Origin: Candidatus Magasanikbacteria bacterium GW2011_GWC2_37_14
GTDB taxonomy: Bacteria > Patescibacteriota > Patescibacteriia > Magasanikbacterales > UBA922
NCBI GenBank assembly: GCA_000990355.1
Contig: LBSX01000011.1
Coordinates: forward strand, 1-63,794
Reading direction: 5' to 3'
Length of the DNA: 63,794 bases
In this document: piece by piece, positions 138 to 43,793 of the stretch
Layout: each line of letters begins with the position of its first letter
Numbering within the stretch: the first letter of the stretch is position 1
Translations under genes and position numbers: made by a program
Notes under the pieces: generated by a model
The model's database searches: none
Told to the model about the DNA's origin: nothing
Seen by the model: the letters and a program-made list of their open reading frames with translations, nothing else

Positions 138-270
138 CAATTCTTTCTTTTCTTTATTAACTGTAATAATGAAGAAAGAATTGAAACTTCGCTTCATCGG
201 GAAACGTTATCGGAAATATTGCTTTTTGACAAAATACTTTTAAGGGACTGTCAACCAAAAAAGGTGCAAT

Positions 271-444
271 ATGCACAGCCGAGCCGCGATGGACCAGCTA
301 CGCGCGTACGAGGAAGCCGTACAGTCGCCCTGCAGATGTCGAATCTGCGGACGAGAGTACTATCCTCAAAGGGGGGACGAACCGTGCCATCACGAGGAAG
401 AGACGGCTGGTGAACAGCCGATCGTCGAGGAGGAACACACATGA
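271..444 (+). CDS. 57-aa Cys/His/Glu-rich micro-ORF in G+C-rich insert (MHSRAAMDQLRAYEEAVQSPCRCRICGREYYPQRGDEPCHHEEETAGEQPIVEEEHT)
   Basis: ATG at 271 is preceded by AAGGTG (4-nt spacer). TGA lies at 442-444 and a 12-bp G+C hairpin follows at 454-483. The ORF is below the 60-aa cut-off of the supplied track. Coding status is unproven. Confidence 0.3.
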   Translation: MHSRAAMDQLRAYEEAVQSPCRCRICGREYYPQRGDEPCHHEEETAGEQPIVEEEHT

Positions 445-453
445 CGTCCCACG

Positions 454-483
454 GGCGAGGCCGACACCACGTCGGCGCTCGCC
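454..483 (+). terminator. G+C hairpin closing the insert (GGCGAGGCCGAC-ACCAC-GTCGGC(G)CTCGCC)
   Basis: 12-bp stem with one bulge, read directly. There is no U-tract, because the right arm of the 21-bp inverted repeat follows immediately. Confidence 0.4.
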
Positions 484-521
484 CAGTCCCTTAAAAGTAT
501 TTTGTAAGAAAAAAAGAAAAA

Positions 522-554
522 GCAATACATCCGATAACAGCCGATATGCGGTTC
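522..554 (+). repeat. Boundary motif copy b (GCAATACATCCGATAACAGCCGATATGCGGTTC)
   Basis: Direct near-repeat of 47-81. Its first half is also part of the right arm of the long inverted repeat. Confidence 0.5.
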
Positions 555-1220: not shown

Positions 1221-1393
1221 ACGTTGTGACGGAATCACTCGCGCGAGCTCGTGTATTTCCGTCACAATGGGGCGCGCTTCCAGCGTTGTTGCGCTCCATC
1301 ACTCGCTCCGCTCGTGACTGGTCGCTACATCCCGCCATCCCATAAGCCTGTGGGCTTCTGGTCTGACGGGACGTCGCATAAGCGCGCCCCATT
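1221..1393 (+). ncRNA. G+C-rich structured element, copy 1 (candidate novel leader RNA or cassette-associated repeat)
   Basis: Identical to 2115-2290 except for a 3-nt indel. Contains a TTGTGACGGAA/TTCCGTCACAA hairpin, a 12-bp long-range helix (1266-1277 with 1382-1393) and a CCATAAGCC-TGTG-GGCTTCTGG hairpin. Strand assignment is tentative. Confidence 0.5.
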
Positions 1394-1426
1394 ATCTGAA
1401 ATTTTTTGTCCCTTAGCGCAACTAAC

Positions 1427-3294: not shown

Positions 3295-3721
3295 TCAAAC
3301 CCTGCTTCATACTGTCGATTGCTTCGCTCCCTCGTTCGCCTTGCAGTCTCACCACATAACACGGATTTTGAAGTTCGGATTTGCAGTCTTCACCCAAATT
3401 GCTACGCAACTTTTCAAAATCCAATATGTTATTTTACAATATTTAAGTGATAACGTTTCTTCATTTGAAAAAGAAACTCTATACCGAGAAGCTATTAAAT
3501 ATCAATACTGGGTAGCATTTTAGAAAATCTTAACATTTGATAGTTTTATTTTCATAAGTACAGCACTTATTTTACTGGTTGTACCTAAAAAAGAAAAACA
3601 GAAGTGAGTAGCTCCAGGGGACATTCACCCCTTTAATTCCCCTCTGTCCCCTGTCGCGTGATTGAAAAAATTTTGTTTTGTTTGATATAATTCAAAATAT
3701 AGTGAGATAACGAAAGAGAAA

Positions 3722-3870
3722 AGTGTACGTTCCCCCGCTGCGCTCTCATGCACTCCGCTACGCTCCGTGTCATTCGGGTCGGGCAGCAGCGTGTATCTGG
3801 TTCGCTCCCGCTGTCGCTCACCCATATCCGCCCAGGGCGGACATCAGATACACGCGTACGTTGTACGAAA
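3722..3870 (+). repeat. Divergent G+C-rich element related to the 1221/2115 family
   Basis: Shares GTACGTT(G) at both ends and CAGCGTGTATCTGGTTCGCTCC (compare 5110-5130). Contains an embedded ACATCAGATA at 3841 and ends ...ACGAAAT like the other copies. A -10-like GATATAAT lies at about 3682. Confidence 0.4.
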
Positions 3871-4024
3871 TAAATTTTTTATCCTTTTTTATATTTTCCC
3901 GTGATGATTAACGATTGATTGACGATCAAAGGAAGCGAAACAAAATTTTTCCATACGATTTTACAGGGGGTTTAGGTGTTTTTCGCCTGTGCGAACAGGC
4001 AAAAAACCGATTTTTATCTAAAAC

Positions 4025-6588: not shown

Positions 6589-8139
6589 ATGAACTCAAAT
6601 AGCCTGCCTACCGGTCAGGCAGGCAAATACCAGATAACATTTTTGATTATTTTAATTTTCTCTTTATTTTTTGTTTTGCCAGTAAAAACGAATGACACAC
6701 CACCAGAAGAAATACCAGTTATACCACCAGTCGAAGAACCAATTATTCCACCTGTAGAAGAACCAGTGGTACCTGCCGAAGAAACAACTTCCACCCCCAC
6801 AATTGAACCAGAGATAATTGAGCAAGATGTTTTAAACAGTGATGCTAGAAAAATCTTAAATTATTTTAAAACAGAACAAGATGAAACTGGGAAAATTATT
6901 AATGCCAATATTTCTGATTGGGCGATGATTTCTTTTGCAGCCAATGAACAATATGGACATGAAATTAAAAAACGTGGTGGAAAATCTTTATTTGAATATA
7001 TTTTAAATTATGATTTTACTGATGCCAGTGATTTGAATGTTTGTGCTACTTATCCACGTCATATTTTGGCACTCCTGGCCGCTGGAGTAGACAAAAATTC
7101 TACTCGCCCCCAAGAATTAAAAGAAAAACTAATTACCACTTGTTATAAAGACAATAATTTTGGCGATAATGGAATTAATGATGATGTTTTCGCTTTATTT
7201 ACTTTGTTGACCATGGACGAAACAAACGACAGTTCAGTAATTACAGACTTAATTAATACTATTCAATCTTGGCAATTAGAAAACGGGGCTTTTGCTTGGC
7301 CAGACTGGATGGACCCAAATATTAAAGTGGCTGGTGACGATATTACTGGAGTAACATTAAACGCTTTAATTTATGCTAAAAACAAAGGAATCAATGTTGA
7401 CCAAAATATAATTAATAATGTTAAAAATTATTTAAAAACTTCACAATTGCCTGATGGTGGCTGGGGTTATTATGGTGCACCAGACGTTTTGACTACCAGT
7501 TGGGTAATGATGGGGCTTAATGCTCTAAGTGAAAGCCAGGCAGAATGGACTGTGGAAGCTACAGGTAAAAACCCTTGGAGTTACTTACACCAAAACCTTA
7601 AAAACGACGGTTTTTACGAACCTTCTTGGTCCCCGGGATCAACTGATTGGTTTGCTACTAAACACGCTGTACCGGCCATTTTGGGGCTTTCCTGGCCAAT
7701 TGTAATGGAACCACGCGAGGAAGAAACTAACATTAGTAATGGACCAAATTATAACTTACCAATTATTGTTAAAAGCGATTTTCCCGAACTTTTTGCTAGT
7801 TCTACCACCACTACTTTAGAAACAACGACTACCACCCTAGAAATAGCTACTTCTACTTTAGAAATAGTTTCTACTACAATTGAAATTGTTACTACCACAC
7901 CAGAAATTACAACTATTGCACTTGATTTAAATAGTTCCACTCTGTCTGTGGTAACTTCTACTTTAGAAAACACAATTAGTACTACTACCAAAAAACAATT
8001 ACCAAAAAATAATTCAAAAACAAATAAAAAAATAATTCAAAAACCACAAAATAGTTTGCAATTAGCCTTGGCTTACTCGTGGTTTGGAAACTATCCTAAA
8101 TACTGGTATAATATTAACCAATTTAAATATAAATTTTAA
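6589..8139 (+). CDS. Secreted/anchored prenyltransferase- or terpene-cyclase-like repeat protein with Thr-rich C-terminal tandem repeats
   Basis: Motifs QLENGAFAWPDW and QLPDGGWGYYG are typical of the alpha/alpha-toroid repeat. The Pro/Glu-rich linker is PPVEEPIIPPVEEPVVP. The C-terminal TTLE/STLE repeats are encoded at about 7790-7990. The start choice (6589 versus 6559) is uncertain. Confidence 0.6.
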   Translation: MNSNSLPTGQAGKYQITFLIILIFSLFFVLPVKTNDTPPEEIPVIPPVEEPIIPPVEEPVVPAEETTSTPTIEPEIIEQDVLNSDARKILNYFKTEQDETGKIINANISDWAMISFAANEQYGHEIKKRGGKSLFEYILNYDFTDASDLNVCATYPRHILALLAAGVDKNSTRPQELKEKLITTCYKDNNFGDNGINDDVFALFTLLTMDETNDSSVITDLINTIQSWQLENGAFAWPDWMDPNIKVAGDDITGVTLNALIYAKNKGINVDQNIINNVKNYLKTSQLPDGGWGYYGAPDVLTTSWVMMGLNALSESQAEWTVEATGKNPWSYLHQNLKNDGFYEPSWSPGSTDWFATKHAVPAILGLSWPIVMEPREEETNISNGPNYNLPIIVKSDFPELFASSTTTTLETTTTTLEIATSTLEIVSTTIEIVTTTPEITTIALDLNSSTLSVVTSTLENTISTTTKKQLPKNNSKTNKKIIQKPQNSLQLALAYSWFGNYPKYWYNINQFKYKF

Positions 8140-8140
8140 T

Positions 8141-8662
8141 ATGAAAAAATACTTAATTCCTGTTTTATTAATCGTTTTGGGTTTTTCTGCTCGACTACTT
8201 CCTCATCCAGCAAATTTTGCCCCAATTGGCGCCATTGCTTTATTTGGCGCTCTTTATTTGCCAAAAAAATATGCTTTGATTGTACCAATTATCGCCATGT
8301 TCATTTCGGATATTTTTATTGGCTTTTATTCTTGGCAAATAATGCTAGCAGTTTACACTAGTTTTGTTTTAATGGGTGTAATTGGTTTGCTAGTAAGAAA
8401 CAAAAAATCATTTTCAACAATACTTGGTGGAACTTTACTTGGTTCTGTTTTATTTTTCTTAATAACTAACTTTGCAGTTTGGGCTTTTGGTACAATGTAT
8501 GCTCATAATTTTTCTGGTTTAATCCAAAGTTATACCATGGCCATTCCTTTTTTTAAAAACAGTTTATTAGGTGATATTTTTTATGTCACAATTTTGGTTG
8601 GCAGTTATGAACTCCTTAATTTGACAAGCAAATTTAAAAATAGTATTCTTCAAAAGGTATAA
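8141..8662 (+). CDS. Small polytopic membrane protein, candidate substrate-capture (ECF S-component-like) transporter
   Basis: About six transmembrane segments and the motif LLPHPANFAPIGAIALFGALYL. Third gene behind the B12 riboswitch. The family call is inferred from context. Confidence 0.45.
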   Translation: MKKYLIPVLLIVLGFSARLLPHPANFAPIGAIALFGALYLPKKYALIVPIIAMFISDIFIGFYSWQIMLAVYTSFVLMGVIGLLVRNKKSFSTILGGTLLGSVLFFLITNFAVWAFGTMYAHNFSGLIQSYTMAIPFFKNSLLGDIFYVTILVGSYELLNLTSKFKNSILQKV

Positions 8663-8685
8663 CATCTTCCCTTTGGGAGGTTTCC

Positions 8686-9024
8686 ATGGAGTTCGTAGCA
8701 ACTCTCAGATGGGGCACGGATAGGCTGACCGTCGAGGTTGACCACACCGACGACCTTGGTGGTCTGACGAAGGAGCAACTCTGCCAGGCGATCGAAAAGG
8801 CGGCGGCCAATTTTTTCACCGCGAATGACCAGTACCCGCTGTTCATCAAGCGCCAGAAGGATGGCACGCTCAAGTACCCGGCAATCTATACGCCGGTACT
8901 GTTCGTCGAAGCTCTCGAAGCGCTCTTCTCGCGCAGCCTCTCGGAGCAAATCCCGCTCAAGCCCCAAGCCGACCCTGACAGCCCGCGTGCGCATGATTGC
9001 TTCCTCGCCGAAGCCAGCGGCTAA
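8686..9024 (+). CDS. Orphan 112-aa protein encoded in a G+C-rich island
   Basis: GGGAGG lies 6 nt before the ATG. 36/60 G+C at 8701-8760 versus about 32% in the host. A hairpin follows at 9041-9064. No recognisable domain. Confidence 0.55.
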   Translation: MEFVATLRWGTDRLTVEVDHTDDLGGLTKEQLCQAIEKAAANFFTANDQYPLFIKRQKDGTLKYPAIYTPVLFVEALEALFSRSLSEQIPLKPQADPDSPRAHDCFLAEASG

Positions 9025-9040
9025 CTCCGCCCTGTCGACC

Positions 9041-9064
9041 CCTCCCGACCAGTTTGTCGGGAGG
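9041..9064 (+). terminator. G+C hairpin after the island ORF (CCTCCCGAC-CAGTTT-GTCGGGAGG)
   Basis: Perfect 9-bp stem with no strong U-tract. The host AAAAACACCCC...GGGGTGTTTTT hairpin (9086-9153) follows. Confidence 0.45.
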
Positions 9065-9163
9065 CTGTGTGACTAAAGTTATACCAAAAACACCCCGTCC
9101 CTCGTTTACTTCTCAATAGCTGGGAATTAAACCAAGGAGTTTGGGGTGTTTTTTATTTTTATA

Positions 9164-10810
9164 TTATTTAGCCGCCGCCTTGATAAACTCTCTAAACAAT
9201 GGGTGTGGACGCATGGGTCGAGATTTAAATTCGGGATGAAATTGAGTACCGACAAAAAATGGATGGTTTTTTAATTCCACAATTTCTACCAAACCTGATT
9301 CAGGATTAATACCCACGACTTGCAAACCAGCTTTTTCCATTGCATCTTGATAATCATTATTAAATTCATAACGATGACGATGACGTTCGGAAACCTGCCT
9401 GCCGGCAGGCAGGTCCTTTTCAATATTATAAGCATTAAACACTTTTGTTCCTGGCTTTAAAACACAATCATAAGCCCCCAAACGCATAGTGCCACCATAA
9501 CGATTCTGACGCACATTTTCTGCCTGTTTTGGATTAATATGAATCACCGGGTTTTTGGTTTCGGGATTAACTTCTACAGTATGGGCATCTTTTTTATTTA
9601 AAACATCACGCACAAATTCAATCGTAGCCAATTGCATACCATAGCACAAACCCAAATAAGGAATTTTATTTTCACGAGCAAATTGAATAGCTTTAATAAT
9701 TCCTTCTACCCCACGAGTACCAAATCCACCTGGCACCAAAATACCATTATATTTTTTAAGTTCTTTAATTTTGTTTTTATTTTTCTCAAATTCTTCACTA
9801 TCTACCCAATCCATTTCCACTTTTACATTATTGGCCCAAGCACCGTGTTTTACTGCTTCAATTACCGAGATATAAGAATCAGACAAAGTATAACTTCCTG
9901 TACTAAAATATTTACCCACCACGGCAATTTTTATAATTTTTTTGCCATTTTGAATTTTTTTGTACAAATTATTCCAAGCCAATAAATTAGTTTTTCTTGA
10001 TTTTATATTTAAAATTTTAAGTAATTTGTTACCAACTTCTTGTTCTTCCAAAACCAAAGGAATTTGGTAAATAGATTTTACATCTGGTGCCGAAATACAG
10101 TTATCTTTACTAATGTTACAAAACACGGCTAATTTTTCTCGGCGTGGCTTATCCAAAACAAACGGACCACGAGCCACAATAATATCGGCATTTAAACCCA
10201 CAGAGTTAAGTTCGCGCACTGCATGTTGGGTGGGTTTAGTTTTCATTTCACCCAAGTGCCCCGGCACTGGCATATAACTAACCAAAATAATGGCTACATC
10301 ATCTGGCTTTTCTAATTTCATTTTACGAGCTGCTTCCAAAAATAAAATATTTTCATATTCACCCACTGTACCACCAATTTCTATAGTAGAAATATCTGCT
10401 TTATGTAATTCGGCAGCAGTTTTGATGCGACGAATTATTTCTTCGGGGATATGAGGAACCACTTGAACACAACGGCCTTTGTACTTCATGGCTCGCTCAT
10501 TTTCTATTACCGAAGTGTAAACGCGTCCAGTGGTCATATAATTTTCCGAATTCAAATCTTCATCCAAAAATCTTTCGTAATTCCCCATGTCTTGGTCAGT
10601 TTCATCACCATCGTCGGTTACAAACACTTCACCGTGCTCCACAGGATTCATGGTTCCCGCATCTACATTTATATAAGGGTCAGCTTTCAAAGCCGTAACC
10701 GAAAAACCCTTGGCTTTAAAAATAGCTCCAAGTGATGCCGAAGTTACACCCTTGCCTACTCCAGAAAGAACACCCCCTACCACGAAAATATATTTACGAA
10801 TTTTTTTCAT
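9164..10810 (-). CDS. pyrG: CTP synthase
   Basis: N-terminus KYIFVVGGVLSGVGKGVTSASLG. Glutamine amidotransferase region GLCYGMQ and RHRHRYEFN. Full length, 548 aa. Confidence 0.95.
   Translation of the reverse strand: MKKIRKYIFVVGGVLSGVGKGVTSASLGAIFKAKGFSVTALKADPYINVDAGTMNPVEHGEVFVTDDGDETDQDMGNYERFLDEDLNSENYMTTGRVYTSVIENERAMKYKGRCVQVVPHIPEEIIRRIKTAAELHKADISTIEIGGTVGEYENILFLEAARKMKLEKPDDVAIILVSYMPVPGHLGEMKTKPTQHAVRELNSVGLNADIIVARGPFVLDKPRREKLAVFCNISKDNCISAPDVKSIYQIPLVLEEQEVGNKLLKILNIKSRKTNLLAWNNLYKKIQNGKKIIKIAVVGKYFSTGSYTLSDSYISVIEAVKHGAWANNVKVEMDWVDSEEFEKNKNKIKELKKYNGILVPGGFGTRGVEGIIKAIQFARENKIPYLGLCYGMQLATIEFVRDVLNKKDAHTVEVNPETKNPVIHINPKQAENVRQNRYGGTMRLGAYDCVLKPGTKVFNAYNIEKDLPAGRQVSERHRHRYEFNNDYQDAMEKAGLQVVGINPESGLVEIVELKNHPFFVGTQFHPEFKSRPMRPHPLFREFIKAAAK
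9393..9414. repeat. 22-bp perfect palindrome ACCTGCCTGCCGGCAGGCAGGT inside pyrG
   Basis: Translated in frame as LPAGRQV just before the conserved ERHRHRYE. The same palindrome family occurs at about 6135-6185, 6600-6625, 26322-26345 and 51165-51195. Confidence 0.8.
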
Positions 10811-10860
10811 AAGATTTAATTTATAAAAACGAGAATATTATAACACAAATTATTTAAGTA

Positions 10861-11500
10861 AACAACCACCGGCCTTAGGGCCGGTGGCTTTGTTTTTGCC
10901 GGCTTAATCGCCGGCAGGGTGGCGTTTGCTTTAGTTAAGGATTTTGTCGAAGAGAGAGGGTTGTTCTACTTCGTTGTGATGTTCTTGGTGAGTGACGTAA
11001 CGACGGATGACATACTCATCAATGCCAATTGTTGAAACAAAGTAACCTCTAGCCCATAATGATTCTTTCTCGTACAACCCATGTTTACGTTTAATCTTTT
11101 TCTTAAGCCAGGCTGAGGATTTACCTTTGATAATTTGCATGGTATACGAGATTGAATCGCGTGGTGTGGTTAAGAGACACATGTGTATATGGTCTTCTTG
11201 AATATTAAGCTCAATTATCTCCCAATGTTTCCATTTGCAAATTGACTCAAATATTCTTCGTAGTTCTTGTTTGATCTTCTCTGCCCCCAATACTTTACCA
11301 CGGTATTTAGGTGTCCACACTAGATGGTACTTTAAATCGTAAAAACAATGTGATAATGTACGGATAGTACGTTTGTGTTGTTTCATAGACGTATGAATTG
11401 TTAGTTACTAAAGCCACCCTGCCGGGTGGCTTTAGTATACGACGTTGTCTTCAAACGTACACCCCAGCTACGCTGGGGGTTTTTAGGATAATAAAAAACC
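10861..11500 (-). mobile_element. IS200/IS605-family element carrying tnpA only
   Basis: The Y1 transposase ORF is flanked by subterminal hairpins: CCACCGGCC..GGCCGGTGG and GCCGGC..GCCGGC at 10866-10915, and AAAGCCACCC..GGGTGGCTTT and CCCCAGC..GCTGGGG at 11410-11480. Exact ends are not determined. Confidence 0.7.
10931..11386 (-). CDS. tnpA: IS200/IS605 family Y1 (HUH) transposase TnpA
   Basis: Motifs YHLVWTPKYR, the HUH motif HIHM in EDHIHMCLL, and a catalytic Tyr region YVIRRYVTHQE. Typical size of 151 aa. Confidence 0.9.
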   Translation of the reverse strand: MKQHKRTIRTLSHCFYDLKYHLVWTPKYRGKVLGAEKIKQELRRIFESICKWKHWEIIELNIQEDHIHMCLLTTPRDSISYTMQIIKGKSSAWLKKKIKRKHGLYEKESLWARGYFVSTIGIDEYVIRRYVTHQEHHNEVEQPSLFDKILN

Positions 11501-11520
11501 CTCTGGAGACAGAGGGATGA

Positions 11521-32496: not shown

Positions 32497-32880
32497 ATGG
32501 GTAGTCAAATAATCATCAACGACACTTTACAAATTACTACAGAACAAGGATTTCCTGTAGAAGTTTTAAATTTAGAAAAACATCAAAATTCACCAATTAC
32601 TTTGGCAGAGGTAGAAAATAAAATTTTTACTTTCCATAAATCTAGCGCCCGAATTTACCACACTCCCCCAACCCGCTGTTTTTTGGTGCAAAATATCAAT
32701 GGTAAATGGTTGTATTGGGGAAAGATTCTAATGCTGGAACAAACAATAACGAGTGACGATAATTATTCACAAACTACCACGGGAAAATATAAAATAATTG
32801 AAATTTATAATCCCGAATATCAAAAACAAATCACGCTTCACGAAACTCCAGAGGGGTTGAGTTATTTTTTAAAAGACTAA
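32497..32880 (+). CDS. Hypothetical protein (127 aa)
   Basis: ATG at 32497 lies 1 nt after the NUDIX stop, suggesting translational coupling. No motif recognised. Confidence 0.55.
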   Translation: MGSQIIINDTLQITTEQGFPVEVLNLEKHQNSPITLAEVENKIFTFHKSSARIYHTPPTRCFLVQNINGKWLYWGKILMLEQTITSDDNYSQTTTGKYKIIEIYNPEYQKQITLHETPEGLSYFLKD

Positions 32881-32890
32881 ATACACAAAC

Positions 32891-33016
32891 GTAAACCCTC
32901 CCCTCGTAGGGAGGTGTCCCGATTCGCATCGGGACGGTGGGGTTCGTTGTACTAACATGAACCCCCACCCTCCGACTGCGACGTCGGAGGACTCCCCCTA
33001 CGAGGGGGAGGTTTAC
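32891..33016. repeat. 126-nt G+C-rich cluster of palindromes that can fold as a four-way junction
   Basis: Outer about 20-bp helix GTAAACCCTCCCCTCGTAGGG with CCCTACGAGGGGGAGGTTTAC. Three abutting hairpins at 32916-32935, 32936-32969 and 32970-32989. The outer arms can alternatively form local hairpins. Confidence 0.6.
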
Positions 33017-33023
33017 CAAACAA

Positions 33024-33122
33024 AAAACCCCAGCTCCACTACGTTGCGCCGGGCAGGCTAGTAAACTTTGTTAAAAAGATAGTCTAGCTTGCCAGGCGCA
33101 GTGAAACGGAGACTGGGGTTTT
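33024..33122 (+). terminator. Extended imperfect hairpin with U-rich tail
   Basis: AAAACCCCAGCTCC pairs with GGAGACTGGGGTTTT, and GCGCCGGGCAGGCTAG pairs with CTAGCTTGCCAGGCGC. Followed by TTTTGTGTTTT. Confidence 0.4.
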
Positions 33123-33285
33123 GTGTTTTCAACTATTTATAATAATTTTATAAACACTTGAGTCACCCTTGGTCCTCCAAGGCCAAGGTGCTCCTAAGTT
33201 AATAGGAAAAGAACGAGAAAGAAAGAACGTGGATTATTTTGCCCCGGAGCTGGGGCACAAGGTGGGATGGGGAAAGGCCTTGTCG

Positions 33286-34197
33286 TCAGGGCTGTTGATC
33301 GCGTTCGACGCTGATCAAGGTCGGAGCGGCATCTTTGAGTTTGCCATCCCCGTATGCCTCGACAACCGTAGCCATAGGGAATCGATCTTGGTCTATCGGT
33401 AAGCGGTAATGAACGAGCACATAGTTGAACCCGACTATGTGAACTTGTTCCACGCTCGTCCGAAGCAAGATCTCGTCGGGGTTGTTTTTCCACAAGGTCA
33501 GCTGCCAATCGTGGTGACTGATGTTGTAAAATATTACCCCGTAGAAAAGCGTGGAGTTGTTGAGCACGATGACCGGTTGGCCGAGCAGGTTCTGGTCCAG
33601 GTCCACCCAGTCCAGGTCTCCGGGTTCGTTTTCGGGATTGCGCCGCGGAAGCTCGAGCACCATCTGCATTTCTTCTTTTTCGAACTTCCATAGGTAGTGC
33701 GAGGTCAAGGCGTAGACCTTGCCCTCGACCTCGTACCAAACGAGTACCCGCTCGTTCACGGGCAAGTTTTTCTCGTTGCCCGGGAATACACCTTTACACA
33801 TGGACCCAAACGACGACAAGGTGTAAAGTCGTTCAGCTTTGGGCAGCTCGATCCATTCGTTGTTGATCTCGAAATGGTCTTCGAACTTGTAGGTCATTTC
33901 TTGCGACACCTCGATCTTTTGGCCACTCTGCGTCGTGTAGGTCAAGATGCGGTAGAACCTGTCTGGAATTTGGCTGGCTCTGAGAACCACCGGTTCTCTG
34001 TTCCAATCCAGGTAAGTCATCACCGGCTTCAAGCGCCGGGGCACGACCCAGTTCGAGTTGTCCTTCGGGCCGTGCAAGGGCACGACCCAGGACTCGTTCT
34101 GGCCGGTCAGCTCGAAGCCGCGATTGACCATGGTCGAACCGCAGCCACCACACACCAGCGCCAAGCCCAGGATCACGAGCGCGACGAACGTCTTCAT
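33286..34197 (-). CDS. Orphan secreted/lipoprotein-like protein (303 aa) in a G+C-rich island
   Basis: GGAGG lies 5 nt before the ATG. Signal peptide MKTFVALVILGLALVCGGCG. 39/60 G+C at 33601-33660. Hairpin GCCCCAGCTCCGGGGC after the stop. No recognisable domain. Confidence 0.7.
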   Translation of the reverse strand: MKTFVALVILGLALVCGGCGSTMVNRGFELTGQNESWVVPLHGPKDNSNWVVPRRLKPVMTYLDWNREPVVLRASQIPDRFYRILTYTTQSGQKIEVSQEMTYKFEDHFEINNEWIELPKAERLYTLSSFGSMCKGVFPGNEKNLPVNERVLVWYEVEGKVYALTSHYLWKFEKEEMQMVLELPRRNPENEPGDLDWVDLDQNLLGQPVIVLNNSTLFYGVIFYNISHHDWQLTLWKNNPDEILLRTSVEQVHIVGFNYVLVHYRLPIDQDRFPMATVVEAYGDGKLKDAAPTLISVERDQQP

Positions 34198-34453
34198 GAC
34201 GTCCTCCGTTTGCTGTACCCCACACGCCAGTGCAGGACAGCATAGCGAACATTAAGAAACAAAGCAAAGGCTGTTTCGAAGCCTGTTCCTCTTTGTAAAA
34301 GAGCGAAAAAAGTGCTCAACAAAACAATTTTTTCGCTTTTTTACAGCTTAATTTTAAACAGTTCATTATAGCACAAAAAAGACCTTTTGTCAAGGCCTTT
34401 GTGCACAGTTGATAATAAATTTTGGCTTAAATTAGCTGTTTCTGGATTAACAG

Positions 34454-34826
34454 CAACCCCGGCAACTCCCCCTACCCCCTCTTGGTAAGAGGGGGATGAC
34501 AACAACGTTCACTCGTTCGTTCACGCGCGCACAAACACAAGGTAAAAATTTAGTGGCGAGTATGAGTGATCCTTCGGAGCTCTTTAGCGAAGAAGGATTT
34601 GCTCGTTTAGAGCCGAGCTTTCTCGGCTCGCACGAGCAAAAACGAATGACGAGGCGAAGTTTTTACTCCACTTTTTTGAAAAAGTGGAAGTAAGAGTAAT
34701 TGGACGATTTCTGGATTCCTGTCTGCACAGGAATGACAAACTACTACCCCTCCTTAATCCTCCCCTTATAAAGGGGAGGAAAACCAACCCCAGCAAACTC
34801 CCCCTACCCCCTCTTGGTAAGAGGGG
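34454..34826. repeat. Repeat-dense segment bounded by about 41-bp direct repeats
   Basis: CAACCCC(G/A)GCA(A)ACTCCCCCTACCCCCTCTTGGTAAGAGGGG at 34454-34494 and 34785-34826. The interior is a chain of short hairpins (GAGCCGAG..CTCGGCTC, CTCCACTTTTT..AAAAAGTGGAG, GGATTCCTGT..ACAGGAATGAC, CCTCCCC..GGGGAGG). Confidence 0.75.
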
Positions 34827-34832
34827 AAAAAA

Positions 34833-35900
34833 TTAAGTAAACCGCTTCATTCTCTTTACCAACTCTTCCAAATCCCCTGGCTTAAAGAGCCAAGCATTTT
34901 CATTAACCGTTAAAAGCTCTCGCACTCCCCCAGTATCCGAGGCAATAATATAAAAACCATTTTGCAAAGCCTCCAAAATTACTTTGGGGCGATTTTCCAA
35001 ACAAGTGGAAGTAAATAATAATACTTGGCATTTTTCATACACGCGTGCCAAATCTTCTCTTTCTAATCTTCCATAAATATTTACATTATTAAATTCTTGC
35101 GACCACAATTCTACCAAGGGCAAAAGTTCGCCATCACCCACAATGTGTAAATTGGCGCGACCACTAATGCTTTCCCAAGCTTGTAACAGTAATTCCACAC
35201 CTTTGTGTTTGACCAAAGAACCAACAAACAAAAAATCAGTTACTTCGGGCAATTCTTTAGGTAAACGTAAAACCATTTTTTCATTTTTGGTTTCCCAACG
35301 ACTGCCTGGAAAAAACTTTTTAAACCAATAAAATTCTTCTAAAAATTTTGATAAAGCAATTACTACTTCGGGTCGGCCAAATTTCTTTTTCATTAAAAAA
35401 CCATAAAACTTTTGGCTAAATTTTAGTTTTTCACCCGGCCAAGCAATTACGCCACTCGGTTCAATTAATTGCACGTCGTGTAAATAATGAACCTGCTTTA
35501 TCCCTATTTTCTGAATTATTTTTGGAATACCAAAACCAATACCAGTTAAATTGTGTGTCCAAACTTCGTCGGGACGTTCTTTTTTTAAAATATCTTTTAC
35601 TTCTTTGTTTAACCAAAAATTAAAAATATCAAAAAAATGCCAAATTAATTTGGTAAGCAAACCATGCTTGGCCAAATCTTTATACCAAAAAATATTTGGC
35701 TGCCAAAGTCGATAAATAGTTACTTTGCCATCTTTGCCAGCCACAGGGTGAATGTAAGACCAACCTTGATAAGGCCGAGCAGTAATAATCATTACTTGCT
35801 GGCCTTGACTAACGAGTTCAACGGCTTGTTCTTCCACAAAGCGTTCCGTGCCACCCACTGCATAAGGCGGATAAAGATTGTTGATTAAACAAATTTTCAT
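34833..35900 (-). CDS. Family 4 (group 1) glycosyltransferase
   Basis: N-terminus KICLINNLYPPYAVGGTERFV. C-terminal E..P.V.LEA...G..IIAS..GG..E motif (ENRPKVILEALQNGFYIIASDTGGVRE). Confidence 0.85.
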   Translation of the reverse strand: MKICLINNLYPPYAVGGTERFVEEQAVELVSQGQQVMIITARPYQGWSYIHPVAGKDGKVTIYRLWQPNIFWYKDLAKHGLLTKLIWHFFDIFNFWLNKEVKDILKKERPDEVWTHNLTGIGFGIPKIIQKIGIKQVHYLHDVQLIEPSGVIAWPGEKLKFSQKFYGFLMKKKFGRPEVVIALSKFLEEFYWFKKFFPGSRWETKNEKMVLRLPKELPEVTDFLFVGSLVKHKGVELLLQAWESISGRANLHIVGDGELLPLVELWSQEFNNVNIYGRLEREDLARVYEKCQVLLFTSTCLENRPKVILEALQNGFYIIASDTGGVRELLTVNENAWLFKPGDLEELVKRMKRFT

Positions 35901-36095
35901 GTTAAGGTATAAGGTGTAAGCTATAAGGTATAATGAGGAAATTATACCTTAAATTTGAATTATTTTAAACATATCAACATCTAATGCACAATAACAACCA
36001 TCCTCATACTTGAAATATTTTGCTAATTTAGCTACTATACACGGGCTACTGACAGATCAATCATAAGTCTTATACCTTAAGTCCTTACACCTGTT

Positions 36096-37529
36096 ATGGA
36101 TATTACCCAAATAGAAAAAATTCCTCCACAAAACCTAGAAGCCGAAATGTCACTCTTGGGCTCTATTTTGATTGACAAAGATGCCATGTACAAAATTGCC
36201 GACATTGTGGAAACAGAAGATTTTTACAAAAATGCCCATGCCACTATTTATGAAGCAATAATTGAATTGTACACTAAAAATGAACCAATTGATGTTTTGA
36301 CTCTTGGTAACCGTTTGGAAGAATTAAAAGCTTTGGAAAAAATCGGTGGTCGCAGTTATTTAATTAATCTTTCCAATACTGTTCCAACTTCTTCTCATAT
36401 TGTAGAATATGCCAAAATTGTTCATCGCAAATCCACTCTGCGCAAGCTTTTGGGTGCGGCTAGTGAGATTACTAAATTGGGTTATAAAGAAGACACCGAA
36501 ACAGTAGAAGAAGTATTAGACGAAGCTCAACAACAATTATTTAGTGTTACCCAAAAACATTTAAAAAAAACTTTTGTCCCCATTAGAAATGTTTTGAGTG
36601 ATGCTTTTGAACGCATTGATGAACTGCATCGTGAAAAAGGTAAATTACGTGGCTTGCCCACTGGTTTTAAAACTTTGGATAATTTATTGGCCGGTTTTCA
36701 AAAATCCGATTTAATTATTTTAGCTGCTCGCCCTAGTGTAGGAAAAAGTTCTTTGGCTATGGACTTTGCCCGAAATGTAGCTATCCGCGCCAAAACACCA
36801 GTGGGAATATTTTCTTTGGAAATGAGTAAAGAACAGCTAGTAGATCGTTTGCTTTGTGCCGAAGCTGGAGTAGATTTGTGGAAAATGCGTACTGGTAACT
36901 TGTCCGATCGGCCAGACAGCAATGATTTTCCCCGGATTGGCCATGCTATGGGTGTATTATCCGAAGCGCCAATTTATTTGGATGACGCGCCAAACAACAA
37001 TGTCATGCAGATTCGTACCAAGGCTCGCCGTTTACAAGCCGAACATGGTTTGGGTTTAATTATAATTGACTATTTACAATTAATGGAATCACACCACAGT
37101 CGTGGTGGCGACAATCGCGTGCAAGAAGTAGCCGAAATTACCAGAGGTTTAAAAGGTATTGCTCGTGAATTAAATATTCCGGTTTTGGCACTTTCACAGC
37201 TGTCACGTAGTGTGGAACAAAGCAAACCCGCTATTCCAAAATTATCCCATTTACGTGAGTCAGGTTCTATTGAACAAGATGCCGACGTAGTAATGTTTAT
37301 TTATCGTAAATCCGCTGATCGTAATTATAATTTAGAAGAAATTCCCCCTGATGAACGTAATATTGCCGAAATTCATATTGCCAAACACAGAAATGGTCCA
37401 ACTGGTTTGGTGCGTTGCTATTTTGATGACACTCGCGCCAGCTTTAGAAATTTGGATACAGAATTTAGTGGTTTTAATACTACACCTACACCAATCACCC
37501 CAGTTAAACCCGCCATCCCTGCTTTTTAA
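36096..37529 (+). CDS. dnaB: Replicative DNA helicase
   Basis: N-terminus PPQNLEAEMSLLGSILID, Walker A ARPSVGKSSLAM, and the IIIDYLQLM and SQLSR motifs. Confidence 0.95.
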   Translation: MDITQIEKIPPQNLEAEMSLLGSILIDKDAMYKIADIVETEDFYKNAHATIYEAIIELYTKNEPIDVLTLGNRLEELKALEKIGGRSYLINLSNTVPTSSHIVEYAKIVHRKSTLRKLLGAASEITKLGYKEDTETVEEVLDEAQQQLFSVTQKHLKKTFVPIRNVLSDAFERIDELHREKGKLRGLPTGFKTLDNLLAGFQKSDLIILAARPSVGKSSLAMDFARNVAIRAKTPVGIFSLEMSKEQLVDRLLCAEAGVDLWKMRTGNLSDRPDSNDFPRIGHAMGVLSEAPIYLDDAPNNNVMQIRTKARRLQAEHGLGLIIIDYLQLMESHHSRGGDNRVQEVAEITRGLKGIARELNIPVLALSQLSRSVEQSKPAIPKLSHLRESGSIEQDADVVMFIYRKSADRNYNLEEIPPDERNIAEIHIAKHRNGPTGLVRCYFDDTRASFRNLDTEFSGFNTTPTPITPVKPAIPAF

Positions 37530-37534
37530 TCAAT

Positions 37535-37611
37535 GTCATCGTGAGCCCCTCCAAAGGGGCGTGGCGATCCCCCGGGATTGCTTCGCCCGCTCGAGCGGGA
37601 CTCGCAATGAC
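37535..37611. repeat. GTCATCGTGAG...CTCGCAATGAC palindromic element (intergenic copy)
   Basis: Same family as 47167-47250 and 50631-50724. Confidence 0.75.
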
Positions 37612-37625
37612 AATATAATACTAAT

Positions 37626-37928
37626 ATGTTCACCAAACTAAAACAATTTAAAGATTTGCGCACCCAAGCAAAACAATGGCAAAATACTATGGGCGAAGAA
37701 TCGGCAACTGGCGAAGCAGCTTTTGGTAAAGTAAAAGTTACTTTAAATGGTAATTTGGAAGTTAGTAATGTGGAAATTGCTGACGAATTATTAGCAACCG
37801 ATAAAAAAGATAAATTACAAACAGCTGTAAAAGAAGCCCACAACGAAGCTTTGAAAAAAATTCAAAAAATCATGGCTGTAAAGATGAAAGAAATGGGTGG
37901 CTTGCCACAAATTCCTGGTTTATCATAG
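37626..37928 (+). CDS. ybaB: YbaB/EbfC nucleoid-associated protein
   Basis: Pattern ...GEAAFGKVKVTLNGNLEVSNVEIADELL...DKLQTAVKEAHNEALKK. About 100 aa and adjacent to recR. Confidence 0.85.
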   Translation: MFTKLKQFKDLRTQAKQWQNTMGEESATGEAAFGKVKVTLNGNLEVSNVEIADELLATDKKDKLQTAVKEAHNEALKKIQKIMAVKMKEMGGLPQIPGLS

Positions 37929-37995
37929 CGTCATTCCCGCGAAGGCGGGAATCTTAAAAAAAGAAAACAAGATCCCCGCCTTCGCGGGGATGACG
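37929..37995. repeat. CGTCATTCCCGCG...CGCGGGGATGACG palindromic element (about 65 bp family)
   Basis: Two hairpins (CCCGCGAAGGCGGG and CCCCGCCTTCGCGGGG) bounded by CGTCAT/ATGACG. Relatives at 47953-48016, 49463-49527 and 57946-58010. Confidence 0.8.
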
Positions 37996-38000
37996 AAAGT

Positions 38001-38591: not shown

Positions 38592-38634
38592 AACTGTTGA
38601 GAATAAAAAAGTCCCGATTAAATCGGGACTTTTT

Positions 38635-38946: not shown

Positions 38947-39026
38947 ATAAAATAATTTAATTAAGGAAAACAGTGTCCTAATTCTACTTCAATTTGGAAT
39001 ATTTGTCAACCCCACATTCCACAGGC

Positions 39027-39491: not shown

Positions 39492-39499
39492 AGAAAAAA

Positions 39500-40570: not shown

Positions 40571-40579
40571 AAAATCTTG

Positions 40580-43339: not shown

Positions 43340-43343
43340 AAAA

Positions 43344-43703: not shown

Positions 43704-43793
43704 AAGACTTTATAACATTATAACTTTCAACTTTATAACTGTTATTATTATAGCATAAAAAATAAAAAACTCCCATAAAGGGAGTTTTGACTT

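What the first reader, a model, noticed from the sequence alone, without database searches (positions are those of the whole stretch)
8656..9085. G+C-rich orphan gene module inserted between the stop codon of the B12-operon transporter and its terminator
- **Boundary.** The sequence switches abruptly from about 30% to about 60% G+C (36/60 at 8701-8760). The switch begins one base after the TAA of the upstream gene (8660-8662) and composition reverts at about 9077.
- **Content.** The module has its own GGGAGG Shine-Dalgarno, a 112-codon ORF (8686-9024) with high-G+C codon usage and no recognisable domain, and a perfect 9-bp G+C hairpin (9041-9064).
- **Flanks.** It is bracketed by an 8-bp inverted repeat, GGTATAAC (8656-8663) and GTTATACC (9078-9085). 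The host's own long hairpin (9086-9153) follows intact.
- **Recurring design.** SD, orphan ORF, hairpin and sharp compositional edges recur at 251-483, 33165-34262 and 45965-46590.
- **Possible explanations.** Very recent horizontal acquisition, for example from a high-G+C host or neighbour of an epibiotic bacterium. Alternatively a family of tiny gene-carrying mobile elements, or chimeric assembly.
Basis: partly seen in the sequence, partly recalled or inferred. Interest (0 to 1): 0.65.

Follow-up and report, generated by a model that had tools for sequence, protein, structure and literature searches.

The report
Hypervariable GC-rich small-gene cassette
The G+C-rich island is real DNA, not an assembly error or a one-off recent import: it is a small protein-coding module that sits at the same spot in several related AT-rich Magasanikbacteria-like genomes, where strains carry very different versions of the gene between almost identical ends.

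Summary
Bases 8664-9077 are 59% G+C in a 36% G+C window. The island has a GGGAGG ribosome-binding site, a 112-codon ORF, a perfect 9-bp G+C hairpin and the 8-bp flanking inverted repeat.

- **Not a chimera.** Four independent assemblies are identical across both junctions. Related strains from other studies share the junction sequences.
- **Not a unique recent acquisition.** The same module lies between the DUF6580 gene and convergent pyrG in at least five other loci.
- **The coding part is hypervariable.** Alleles are 51% and 22% identical in protein, while the 5' and 3' ends are 87-94% identical in DNA.
- **Gene and flanks have different histories.** This is seen in both directions, so recombination has exchanged the module.
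- **It codes for protein.** The + frame shows purifying selection (pN/pS 0.36-0.47), and every allele keeps GC3 of 0.64-0.76 against 0.22-0.28 in host genes.
- **No wider relatives or machinery.** No homologue exists outside this locus among 1.84 billion representative proteins. No integrase or reverse transcriptase was found, and the 3' end does not fold like attC.

Best reading: a replaceable accessory gene at a recombination hot spot, in the style of a minimal mobile element. Its function is unknown, and its persistent G+C richness is unexplained.

The parts
8621..8649 (+). Promoter-like site TTGACA-17 nt-TATTCT inside the last codons of the DUF6580 gene. It is a possible own promoter of the module. 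If it is not used, the ORF would be read through from the upstream operon.
   Evidence: Consensus scan gives 10/12 matches. The stretch is identical in the window and L005, and its 3' part including TATTCT is also identical in L014, whose contig starts inside the site. L019 has TTGACA in the equivalent place. Function is not shown.
8656..8663 (.). Left arm GGTATAAC of the 8-bp flanking inverted repeat. It contains the TAA stop (8660-8662) of the DUF6580 gene (8141-8662).
8664..8685 (+). Conserved 5' end of the module. A small stem CTTCCC (8666-8671) / GGGAGG (8675-8680) would sequester the Shine-Dalgarno sequence.
   Evidence: The 5' segments compared (48 nt upstream of the ATG plus the ATG) are 90-94% identical in three strains whose coding parts are 35-59% identical. 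The stem is kept with different loops (TTT, TTTA, TGTT). RNA folding predicts the stem in the window (-7.0 kcal/mol) and L014 (-10.2 kcal/mol for the whole 40-nt fold, which includes a second small stem), but gives a different fold for L005. Not significant as DNA structure.
8686..9024 (+). 112-codon ORF (stop at 9022-9024) for a small, probably cytoplasmic, alpha/beta protein. This is the hypervariable part of the module.
   Evidence: GC1/2/3 is 0.63/0.41/0.74. It is open in the same frame in all five alleles, and that frame has the lowest pN/pS of six (0.47 and 0.36). Alleles: P0121/L014 51% identical (E 2e-27), L005 22%, L019/L095 weakly alignable. AlphaFold2 gives pLDDT 70 and pTM 0.61 with order b-b-a-b-b-a-b-a. 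No fold or family match. The coding RNA has no excess structure (z = +0.24).
9007..9040 (+). Conserved last five codons plus stop (GCCGAAGCCAGCGGCTAA) and the start of the 3' UTR. This is the right-hand limit of the hypervariable segment.
9041..9064 (+). Perfect 9-bp G+C stem with a 6-nt loop (CCTCCCGAC CAGTTT GTCGGGAGG) and no T-run. It is probably an RNA 3' stem-loop.
   Evidence: (I19). The window loop CAGTTT is the exact reverse complement of the L005 loop AAACTG. L014 has AAATTG.
9078..9085 (.). Right arm GTTATACC of the flanking inverted repeat.
   Evidence: It reads GTAATACC in L005 and L014.
9086..9153 (.). 68-nt extended hairpin, A-run/T-run flanked (AAAAACACCCC...GGGGTGTTTTT). It is a bidirectional terminator shared with convergent pyrG (9164-10810, minus strand) and probably belongs to the module.
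   Evidence: Fold of -58 kcal/mol for 9010-9160, z = -5.7. Conserved in all five loci aligned (the window, L005, L014, L019, L095), with no compensatory changes. Island-free relatives have a short simple terminator instead. No Rfam match.

Best explanation
**What it is.** The island is genuine chromosomal DNA of a Magasanikbacteria-like Patescibacterium. It is a compact accessory gene module made of these parts:
- a possible promoter embedded in the last codons of the DUF6580 gene;
- a Shine-Dalgarno sequence that can pair into a short stem;
- a 112-codon ORF for a small alpha/beta protein;
- a 9-bp G+C stem-loop;
- a 68-nt extended bidirectional terminator shared with convergent pyrG.

**How it behaves.** The module is a long-standing, polymorphic occupant of the DUF6580-pyrG junction in one clade. 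Different strains carry extremely divergent alleles of the ORF between nearly identical ends. The allele genealogy disagrees with the flanks. This fits a replaceable cassette at a recombination hot spot, in the style of a Neisseria minimal mobile element. Whole alleles would be swapped among related strains by homologous recombination in the conserved ends or flanking genes. That would probably follow DNA uptake, and no dedicated recombinase is needed.

**Inferred steps.** The extreme divergence confined to the coding part suggests diversifying or frequency-dependent selection on a specificity-type protein, for example an immunity, anti-toxin or anti-phage factor. That functional guess is weak, about 0.2.

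**What the G+C richness means.** It is a stable property of the whole gene family. It therefore marks a foreign or otherwise unusual origin, or active maintenance. It does not mark a very recent event in this genome.
For: **Real DNA.** Four independent assemblies are identical over 8601-9160. A Logan contig spans 7800-9389 with 0 differences, and a contig from a second sample spans 8480-8690.

**Same site, same ends, different gene.**
- L005/L006: DUF6580 89% identical in protein, flanks about 86-88% in DNA. They carry a 118-codon G+C-rich ORF that cannot be aligned at DNA level. BLASTP gives 22% identity over 50 residues.
- L014 carries a 111-codon allele 51% identical in protein.
- L019 and L095 carry an 86-codon G+C-rich allele plus a G+C hairpin before the same long terminator next to pyrG.
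- Contigs from freshwater metagenomes of other studies match only the module ends.

**Numbers.**
- Identity is 90-94% at the 5' end, 87-92% at the 3' end and 35-59% in the coding interior.
- Window versus L005: island dN 1.04 and dS about 1.5, against dN 0.066 and dS 0.59 in the adjacent DUF6580 gene.

**Decoupled history.**
- L014 and L005 are closest in the 3' flank, but the window and L014 are closest in the coding part.
- In L019 versus L095 the module is much more conserved (dS 0.45) than the adjoining DUF6580 3' part (dS 1.44).

**Hot spot.** Relatives have the site empty (L009, L010), occupied by a Cys-rich ORF (L008), or occupied by an AT-rich minus-strand gene (L017, L018). By pyrG identity, the empty L009 (81%) is closer to the window than the island-bearing L019 (77%).

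**Coding.** The sense frame has the lowest pN/pS of six frames in two allele pairs and is open in all alleles.

**No machinery.** Pfam annotation of the window from about 2 to 53 kb shows housekeeping genes only. There is no integrase and no reverse transcriptase, only an IS200-like Y1 transposase 1.8 kb away.

**Plausible route.** Patescibacteria are reported to keep homologous recombination genes and comEC/pilus DNA uptake (PMC12455944). The minimal-mobile-element concept is cited from PMC1797815.
Against: - **G+C richness is not explained.** Synonymous sites between alleles are saturated (dS 1.4 or more among the three alleles of the window's clade), yet GC3 stays at 0.64-0.76 in genomes with GC3 of 0.22-0.28. 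Long residence in these genomes should have erased it. A G+C-rich donor pool was not found.
- **Breakpoints are very tight.** The divergent segment starts within 3 nt of the ATG and ends about 15 nt before the stop. That is tighter than simple flank-mediated replacement requires.
- **Few alleles.** Only five were read in full.
- **No direct expression evidence.** The only RNA runs from the site are tiny and hold none of the island.
- **No support for the functional guess.** No partner toxin or defence gene is adjacent, and PADLOC gives nothing.
Confidence: 0.55

Rival explanations
1. The module is a site-specific or hairpin-targeting mobile cassette. A family of small G+C-rich gene cassettes (ORF plus 3' hairpin) would be inserted repeatedly by an unidentified recombinase. 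This could be integron-like, Xer-like or HUH-like. The target would be the centre of palindromes or terminators, and the different alleles would be independent insertions from a G+C-rich pool.
For: - The island lies exactly between GGTATAAC and GTTATACC, the two halves of a 16-bp palindrome.
- The sister island at 251-483 lies exactly at the centre of a long palindrome, with arms of 28 nt (93% complementary) and 22 nt (91%).
- Contigs of a relative show the joined form 246->488, an uninterrupted CTTTTAAGGG|CCCTTAAAAG.
- All islands share the design of ORF plus G+C hairpin without a T-run and a similar non-host codon usage.
- The 9-6-9 palindrome resembles a recombinase core site, and its spacer is inverted between strains.
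- There is a weak Pfam hit to 'Integron cassette protein' PF21648 (E 0.062).
Against: - The attC architecture is absent. The R''-like and R'-like boxes do not pair, there are no L boxes, and GTT reads GTA in two of three strains.
- No integrase gene lies within about 2-53 kb.
- No second copy of either end exists in the window.
- The 3' end was found only at this locus in JGI metagenome contigs and not in viral contigs.
- The ends diverge at the same rate as the host flanks.
- The PF21648 hit is not reproduced by the L005 allele.
- The hairpins at the ends of the nearby IS200-like element are unrelated in sequence.
Confidence: 0.17
2. A localized hypermutation process acts in place. A targeted and G+C-biased mutagenic or gene-conversion mechanism would operate between the 5' and 3' hairpins. 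It would diversify the ORF and hold its G+C high.
For: - The limits of divergence are sharp and lie next to two conserved hairpins.
- dS in the island far exceeds that of the flanking gene.
- G+C richness persists despite saturated synonymous change.
- Diversity-generating retroelements are known to be common in these phyla (own knowledge).
Against: - There is no template repeat or second copy.
- No reverse transcriptase lies in about 2-53 kb.
- Differences are not confined to adenines, and the coding strand is not depleted in A.
- In the L019/L095 pair the gene evolves slowly and under purifying selection.
- The flank-versus-gene incongruence requires recombination in any case.
Confidence: 0.07
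3. The island is a very recent horizontal acquisition by this one genome from a high-G+C neighbour or host.
For: Non-host composition, codon usage and amino-acid usage.
Against: - Homologous alleles occupy the same site in at least five other related loci.
- No homologue exists in any other organism among 1.84 billion representative proteins or 5.8 billion protein clusters.
- Nothing was found in plasmids or phages.
Confidence: 0.03
4. The ORF is spurious. The island would be a non-coding G+C-rich element, either a structured RNA or a repeat, or the real gene would be the 114-codon ORF on the minus strand (8650-8994) that two gene callers chose.
For: - G+C-rich DNA gives long open frames on both strands.
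- Gene callers called nothing in two assemblies and the minus-strand ORF in the other two.
Against: - Only the + frame is open in all five alleles, and it has the lowest pN/pS.
- GC3 > GC1 > GC2 periodicity holds in every allele.
- The Shine-Dalgarno sequence, start and stop are conserved.
- The minus-strand frame has stops in other alleles.
- The coding RNA shows no excess folding (z = +0.24), and there is no Rfam hit.
- NCBI annotates the L019 allele on the + strand.
Confidence: 0.04
5. The island is a chimeric assembly.
For: None beyond the compositional jump.
Against: as described above.
Confidence: 0.01

Closest known systems
Minimal mobile elements of Neisseria (Saunders & Snyder 2002, as cited in PMC1797815)
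   Same: - It occupies a fixed site between two conserved genes.
- That site holds alternative small gene contents, or nothing, in different strains.
- The element has no mobility gene of its own.
- Exchange is inferred to go through homologous recombination in conserved flanks in a naturally DNA-importing organism.
   Different: - Most alternatives here are highly diverged alleles of one orphan family rather than unrelated genes.
- The homology arms reach to within a few bases of the start and stop codons.
- The cargo keeps a composition about 23 points richer in G+C than the host.
- The organism is a Patescibacterium, and transformation was not shown.
Integron gene cassettes (ORF plus attC)
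   Same: - A small orphan ORF with its own ribosome-binding site.
- An imperfect or perfect palindrome directly after it, without a T-run, with the stop codon close to that palindrome.
- Conserved 3' end and variable gene.
- Placed where an upstream promoter can read into it.
   Different: - No attC fold, that is, no R''/R' and L''/L' pairing.
- The GTT crossover triplet is not conserved.
- No intI, no attI and no array.
- The 5' end is conserved as well.
- A single fixed site.
Hypervariable allelic loci under balancing selection, such as immunity or orphan-immunity genes of polymorphic toxin systems and pherotype loci
   Same: - A small protein with no signal peptide apparent from the sequence (not tested with a predictor).
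- Extreme allelic divergence confined to the coding region between conserved flanks.
- Alleles shuffled among strains.
   Different: - No toxin, bacteriocin or signalling partner gene is adjacent.
- No family or fold match.
- Such loci usually have host-like or lower G+C.
G+C-rich mobile palindromic clusters in AT-rich genomes, such as the GC clusters of yeast mitochondrial DNA (own knowledge)
   Same: - Sharp G+C-rich inserts in AT-rich intergenic DNA that contain hairpins.
- Presence/absence polymorphism between relatives, seen for the island at 251-483 and for a roughly 45-nt insert in L014.
   Different: - Those elements are 30-60 bp and non-coding.
- This one carries a selected protein-coding gene and is single-copy.

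Membership tests
Integron gene cassette | An attC site: R'' (RYYYAAC) and R' (GTTRRRY) boxes that pair, L''/L' boxes with extrahelical bases, folding of the bottom strand | tested here: not met
   The candidate boxes GGCTAAC (9019-9025) and GTTATAC (9078-9084) each carry one mismatch to consensus. They do not pair in DNA folds of either strand. Only the internal 9-bp stem forms. R' reads GTAATAC in L005 and L014.
Integron gene cassette | An integron integrase (intI) and attI nearby, or an array of attC sites | tested here: not met
   Pfam annotation of called genes over about 2-53 kb of the window lists no integrase. There is no second copy of the 3' end in the window.
Minimal mobile element (Neisseria concept) | Alternative gene content at one site between the same conserved flanking genes in different strains | tested here: met
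   The DUF6580-pyrG junction holds family alleles in the window, L005, L014, L019 and L095. It is empty in L009 and L010, holds a Cys-rich ORF in L008, and holds an AT-rich minus-strand gene in L017 and L018.
Minimal mobile element (Neisseria concept) | No mobility gene inside the element | tested here: met
   The module holds one 112-codon orphan ORF with no Pfam, NCBIfam, PHROG or PADLOC match.
Minimal mobile element (Neisseria concept) | Horizontal exchange by homologous recombination in the flanks | tested here: met
   Gene and flank genealogies conflict. In L019 versus L095 the module has dS 0.45 against dS 1.44 in the flanking gene. In the window versus L005 the module has dS about 1.5 against 0.59 in the flank. 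This is indirect: recombination is inferred, not observed.
Minimal mobile element (Neisseria concept) | Transfer by natural transformation | not testable with these tools
   There is only a literature statement that Patescibacteria carry comEC and pilus genes (PMC12455944).
Diversity-generating retroelement target | A reverse transcriptase plus a template repeat, with variable-repeat differences confined to template adenines | tested here: not met
   No second copy of the island exists in the window. No reverse transcriptase lies in about 2-53 kb. Differences occur at all bases and codon positions.
IS200/IS605-type non-autonomous element (PATE) | Subterminal hairpins at both ends recognised by a Y1 transposase, with multiple copies | tested here: inconclusive
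   For: both ends have stems containing GGGAGG (8666-8680 and 9041-9064), and a Y1_Tnp gene lies at 10931-11386 (E 2e-33). Against: the hairpins at that element's own ends are unrelated in sequence, the module is single-copy, and the same site is occupied in all strains.
Intrinsic (bidirectional) terminator, for 9086-9153 | A G+C-containing stem flanked by an A-run upstream and a T-run downstream, between convergent genes | tested here: met
   AAAAACACCCC...GGGGTGTTTTTT with an extended imperfect stem. The simple scanner misses it because the loop exceeds 8 nt. Termination itself was not assayed.
Toxin-immunity or defence-system component | An adjacent cognate toxin or effector gene, or a match to a known defence family | tested here: not met
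   The neighbours are DUF6580 and pyrG. There is no PADLOC hit for any allele and no structural match in PDB or BFVD.

The most novel reading that the evidence does not exclude
AT-rich Patescibacteria may carry a previously undescribed class of small G+C-rich gene cassettes (ORF plus 3' hairpin). These would enter at the centres of palindromes or terminator hairpins, or be diversified there by a G+C-biased local process. Their foreign composition would be actively maintained rather than decaying. The islands at 251-483, 8664-9153, about 33.2-34.3 kb and about 45.9-46.6 kb would all be members.
Probability: 0.15. Interest if true: 0.8.

Novelty: new variant of a known kind. Interest (0 to 1): 0.55.

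Why it matters
- **Composition alone misleads.** A sharp G+C jump with non-host codon usage would normally be called a very recent transfer. Comparison shows instead a long-lived, strain-variable locus.
- **Strain-level variation in Patescibacteria.** It shows that these organisms have small replaceable-gene hot spots at convergent terminators, exchanged within a clade. This bears on how reduced, DNA-scavenging epibionts generate strain-level differences.
- **A usable marker.** The conserved ends around a hypervariable gene would allow strain typing and allele-frequency tracking in groundwater and freshwater time series.
- **A concrete puzzle.** GC3 persists at 0.64-0.76 across alleles whose synonymous sites are saturated, inside genomes with GC3 near 0.25. 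This challenges the usual expectation that acquired genes drift toward host composition.
- **Missing from protein catalogues.** Gene callers trained on the AT-rich host miss or mis-strand these genes, so this class is under-represented.

Tried and rejected
- **Homology searches.**
  - A word-indexed search of the ORF against 5.8 billion protein clusters found nothing.
  - A full HMMER scan of 1.84 billion representatives found one true homologue, P0121. The three other hits are low-complexity repeat proteins and were discarded.
  - A profile search with four alleles added only the L019 and L095 alleles.
- **Family libraries.** Pfam, NCBIfam, PHROGs and PADLOC gave nothing significant. The PF21648 'Integron cassette protein' hit (E 0.062) was not reproduced by the L005 allele.
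- **Structure.** The AlphaFold2 model is of moderate confidence. Foldseek against PDB and BFVD, and a PDB sequence-profile search, gave no significant match.
- **Plasmids and phages.** tblastn found no match.
- **DNA pattern of the 3' end.** JGI metagenome contigs returned only the L006 contig, and viral contigs returned none.
- **RNA evidence.** Only three tiny SOLiD metatranscriptomes exist from the site, and they hold 0% of the island's words.
- **Rfam.** No match at permissive threshold on 8600-9200.
- **attC and recombination-site reading.** Rejected by folding.
- **Diversity-generating retroelement reading.** Rejected.
- **12-nt direct repeat AAAGTTATACCA (8526 and 9075).** Judged to be chance. 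BLAST E is 1.5-3.8, and it is not conserved in L005.
- **Empty GGTATAAC|GTTATACC site.** Sought in contigs of seven runs, and none was found.
- **Minus-strand 114-codon ORF.** Rejected as a shadow ORF.
Full report

Yes. In 100-nt windows G+C is 0.24-0.36 up to about 8650. It rises to 0.52-0.68 between 8650 and 9099 and then falls back to 0.36-0.46.

Bases 8664-9077 are 59.2% G+C against 36.3% for the whole window. Only 0.5% of 414-nt windows reach this value, and all of them lie in this island or in the one near 46 kb.

Direct reading and the ORF and repeat tools confirm each named feature:
- the upstream TAA at 8660-8662;
- GGGAGG at 8675-8680, 5 nt before the ATG at 8686;
- the 112-codon ORF at 8686-9024;
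- the perfect 9-bp stem at 9041-9049 / 9056-9064;
- the arms GGTATAAC (8656-8663) and GTTATACC (9078-9085);
- the long hairpin at 9086-9153.

GC1/GC2/GC3 of the ORF is 0.63/0.41/0.74, while four host genes have GC3 of 0.22-0.28. Its synonymous codon usage is anti-correlated with host genes (r about -0.4). It is positively correlated with the ORFs of the other three islands.

The 8-bp inverted repeat alone is weak evidence. 3.5% of random placements in loose geometry show one, and 0.1% in tight geometry.

**2. It is not a chimera.**

The upstream protein (8141-8662; Pfam DUF6580, E 1e-51) is encoded on contigs of four independent assemblies: two from ENA, one from JGI and one from Logan. All four contain 8601-9160 without a single difference.

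A 4.3-kb Logan contig of the source sample covers 7800-9389 with 0 differences. A contig from a second sample covers 8480-9690's left junction region, namely 8480-8690. Diverged relatives from other studies also carry the same junction sequences, as described next.

**3. Relatives have the same module with a different gene.**

Homologues of the DUF6580 protein are named Candidatus Magasanikbacteria by their sources.

*L005/L006.* This is the closest relative with usable DNA. It comes from a groundwater metagenome of another study. Its DUF6580 is 89% identical in protein, and its flanks are about 86-88% identical in DNA.
- Directly after the same GGTATAAC it has the same 5' leader (GTCTTCCCTTTAGGGAGGTTTCC ATG).
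- Directly before the same long hairpin it has the same 3' end (GCCGAGGCCCGCGGCTAAC..CCCTGTCGACCCCTCCTGAC AAACTG GTCGGGAGGCTGT...GTAATACC).
- Between these ends lies a 118-codon G+C-rich ORF (GC3 0.76) that cannot be aligned to the window's ORF at DNA level.
- At protein level it gives only 22% identity over 50 residues.

*L014.* An exhaustive HMMER scan of 1.84 billion representative proteins found exactly one true homologue, P0121. It is 111 aa, 51% identical, E 2e-27. The other three hits are low-complexity repeat proteins. P0121 lies on a 613-nt contig, L014, which is the same locus in a third strain with the same ends and the same terminator.

*L019 and L095.* L019 is a GTDB species-representative genome, Magasanikbacteria UBA11710, with DUF6580 71% identical. 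L095 is a short metagenome contig. Both carry an 86-codon G+C-rich ORF (54% G+C, GC3 0.64) with its own promoter-like TTGACA and a G+C hairpin. The ORF sits directly before the same type of long hairpin next to pyrG. It aligns weakly with the other alleles.

*Other runs.* Contigs of freshwater metagenomes from further studies match only the ends of the module. One matches 9007-9155 and one 8924-9118.

*The site in other lineages.* It is empty in L009 and L010: stop codon, about 50 nt, a short terminator, then pyrG. L008 holds a Cys-rich ORF of ordinary composition. L017 and L018 hold an AT-rich minus-strand gene. By pyrG identity, the empty L009 (81%) is nearer to the window than the island-bearing L019 (77%).

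**4. The ORF is a real gene on the + strand.**

Automatic gene callers called nothing here in two assemblies. In the other two they called the 114-codon minus-strand ORF. That explains why the + product was absent from the exact-match index. Four results show that the + frame is the real one:
- It is the only frame open in all five alleles.
- It has the lowest pN/pS of the six frames: 0.47 for the window versus L014 and 0.36 for L019 versus L095. The minus-strand frames acquire stops in other alleles.
- GC3 > GC1 > GC2 periodicity holds in every allele.
- The coding RNA folds no better than shuffles (z = +0.24), and Rfam finds nothing. A structured-RNA reading is therefore unsupported.

**5. 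How it evolves.**

Pairwise identity among the window, L014 and L005:

| Segment | Identity |
|---|---|
| 5' end | 90-94% |
| 3' end | 87-92% |
| Coding interior | 35-59% |

- For the window versus L005, the island has dN 1.04 and dS about 1.5, which is saturated. The adjacent DUF6580 gene has dN 0.066 and dS 0.59.
- The two parts disagree on relationships. L014 and L005 are closest in the 3' flank (92%) and share the loop orientation and GTAATACC. The window and L014 are closest in the gene.
- In the other sub-clade the contrast is reversed. Between L019 and L095 the module has dS 0.45 and dN 0.13, and its promoter and terminator region is nearly identical. The adjoining DUF6580 3' part has dS 1.44.

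The history of the module is therefore decoupled from its flanks in both directions. That requires recombinational exchange among related lineages.

No machinery for targeted insertion or mutagenesis was seen:
- There is no second copy of the island in the window.
- There is no integrase or reverse transcriptase among the genes annotated from about 2 to 53 kb.
- The only mobility gene is an IS200-like Y1 transposase at 10931-11386. The hairpins at its own ends are unrelated in sequence.

**6. Anatomy and likely expression.**

- **Promoter.** A promoter-like TTGACA-17-TATTCT (8621-8649, 10/12 matches) lies in the last codons of DUF6580. It is identical in L005, and L014 shares the part its short contig covers. 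Otherwise the ORF would be read through from the upstream operon, because no terminator lies in between.
- **Ribosome-binding site.** The Shine-Dalgarno sequence can pair with CTTCCC 4-9 nt upstream. This stem is kept with three different loops.
- **3' stem-loop.** The 9-bp G+C stem has no T-run.
- **Terminator.** The 68-nt A-run/T-run hairpin is the probable bidirectional terminator for the module and for pyrG. It occurs in every island-bearing locus and in no island-free relative. L019 and L095 keep what looks like a remnant of the simple ancestral terminator (AAAAACCACCC) after it. I infer that it belongs to the module rather than being 'the host's own'.
- **Protein.** It is predicted at moderate confidence (pLDDT 70, pTM 0.61) as a b-b-a-b-b-a-b-a fold. 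It has no match in PDB or BFVD and no family match.

**7. Interpretation.**

The best-supported reading is a replaceable accessory gene at a recombination hot spot.
- The site is fixed between conserved genes.
- Its contents differ between strains.
- The module has no mobility gene.
- Exchange goes through conserved ends or flanks.

This is how Neisseria minimal mobile elements are described (PMC1797815). It is plausible in organisms reported to keep homologous recombination and DNA-uptake genes (PMC12455944).

Divergence is confined to the coding part and sharply bounded. That pattern suggests diversifying or frequency-dependent selection on a specificity-type protein. This step is inference only, and no partner gene is present.

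The G+C content remains unexplained. Synonymous sites between alleles are saturated, yet all alleles keep GC3 of 0.64-0.76 and G+C-type amino-acid usage. Three accounts are possible, and the data do not decide between them:
- The alleles diversified in an unsampled G+C-rich pool and were imported repeatedly. No such pool was found.
- G+C is maintained by selection.
- G+C is maintained by a biased local process.

**8. The integron and mobile-cassette idea.**

The design of ORF plus hairpin, the stop codon next to a TAAC box, and a weak PF21648 hit made an integron cassette worth testing.
- The attC test fails.
- GTT is not conserved.
- There is no intI.
- The Pfam hit is not reproduced by another allele.

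A hairpin-centre insertion mechanism still cannot be excluded.
- This island lies between the two halves of a 16-bp palindrome.
- The island at 251-483 lies exactly at the centre of a much longer palindrome.
- Contigs of a relative show the uninterrupted palindrome with the 241-nt island missing.

**9. Verdict.**

The chimera reading and the 'unique recent acquisition' reading are rejected, and the 'mobile cassette' idea is partly supported.

The feature is a new variant of a known kind, namely a site-bound, recombinationally exchanged accessory gene. Its unusual trait is a persistent foreign composition combined with extreme allelic divergence in an AT-rich Patescibacterium.

Noticed in passing
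window 206-538 (island 247-487): The G+C-rich island with a 57-codon Cys-rich ORF (271-443) and an imperfect G+C hairpin sits exactly at the centre of a long AT-rich palindrome. The arms are 223-250/484-511 (93% complementary) and 206-227/517-538 (91%). Contigs of run X6, which holds a related strain, show the joined form 246->488. That is an uninterrupted CTTTTAAGGG|CCCTTAAAAG without the 241-nt island. The left flank (about 50-222) is a high-copy sequence in the community, with depth of 400-600.
   Followed up: partly
window 1221-1394 and 2115-2291; related 3725-3870: Two virtually identical G+C-rich copies of about 174 nt lie upstream of genes 1406-1903 and 2324-2878. They are 100% identical over 100 nt, then have a 3-nt indel, then stay almost identical to the end of the G+C-rich part. 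They contain nested inverted repeats, for example AATGGGGCGCGC...GCGCGCCCCATT. A third G+C-rich leader-like block lies before 4090. None matches any Rfam family even at E<=1. They are candidate undescribed leader or riboswitch-like RNAs, or a small non-coding mobile element.
   Followed up: partly
window 45963-46590 (ORF 46042-46383): This G+C-rich island (up to 77% G+C) has a sigma-70-like promoter (TTGACA...TAGTGT at about 45964-45992) and a 113-codon Ala/Glu/Pro-rich ORF. Contig L097 from the same population differs from the window only by a 51-nt in-frame repeat insertion at 46351 and two SNPs over 18.6 kb (34654-53288); left of about 34650 it diverges (see the 33141-35677 item). In run X6 the relative's contigs align up to 45789 and from 46654 onward, but not in between.
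   Followed up: partly
window 33141-35677: Assemblies disagree around the island that carries a 303-codon lipoprotein-like ORF (33286-34197, minus strand). L097 leaves the window left of about 34650 and continues into GatB and thymidylate genes that are not in the window. The L098 contig ends at 33141, and L099 diverges at 35677. The island is flanked by clusters of similar G+C hairpins (32880-33130, 34440-34830). This is either strain-level structural variation or a repeat-mediated assembly join.
   Followed up: partly
window 10811-11520: An IS200-like Y1 transposase gene (10931-11386, minus strand; Pfam Y1_Tnp, E 2e-33) lies between pyrG and rplI, with G+C hairpins on both sides (about 10866-10916 and 11409-11477). 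L009 has no gene called between pyrG and rplI (a 200-nt gap against about 710 nt in the window), so it is an insertion in this lineage.
   Followed up: partly
window 9050-9055 versus L005 4928-4933 and L014 409-414: The 6-nt loop of the 9-bp hairpin is CAGTTT in the window and its exact reverse complement AAACTG in L005. L014 has AAATTG. This looks like a hairpin-loop inversion of the kind produced by template switching at a perfect palindrome.
   Followed up: no
L014 516-570 versus window 9154-9170: The third strain has an extra G+C-rich insert of about 45 nt, with a small hairpin CCCTCTAAAGAGAGG, between the long terminator and the pyrG stop. Short G+C-rich hairpin blocks therefore come and go in these genomes.
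   Followed up: no
L008 3560-3765; L017 about 3610-3940; L018 about 3630-3890; L024 3869-4387: Other lineages hold different small genes downstream of DUF6580. L008 has a Cys-rich ORF, and L017 and L018 have an AT-rich minus-strand ORF before pyrG. In L024 a separate G+C-rich island with a minus-strand ORF follows a DUF2164-like gene.
   Followed up: partly
window 8526-8537 and 9075-9086: There is an exact 12-nt direct repeat AAAGTTATACCA, once inside the DUF6580 gene and once at the right edge of the island. It is not conserved in L005, and its BLAST E-value is 1.5-3.8, so it is probably chance.
   Followed up: yes
window 8650-8994 (minus strand): Gene callers of two public assemblies annotated the antisense 114-codon shadow ORF, and two called nothing. 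The true + strand product is therefore missing from the protein collections for this strain and for L005. G+C-rich genes in AT-rich genomes may be systematically mis-called.
   Followed up: yes
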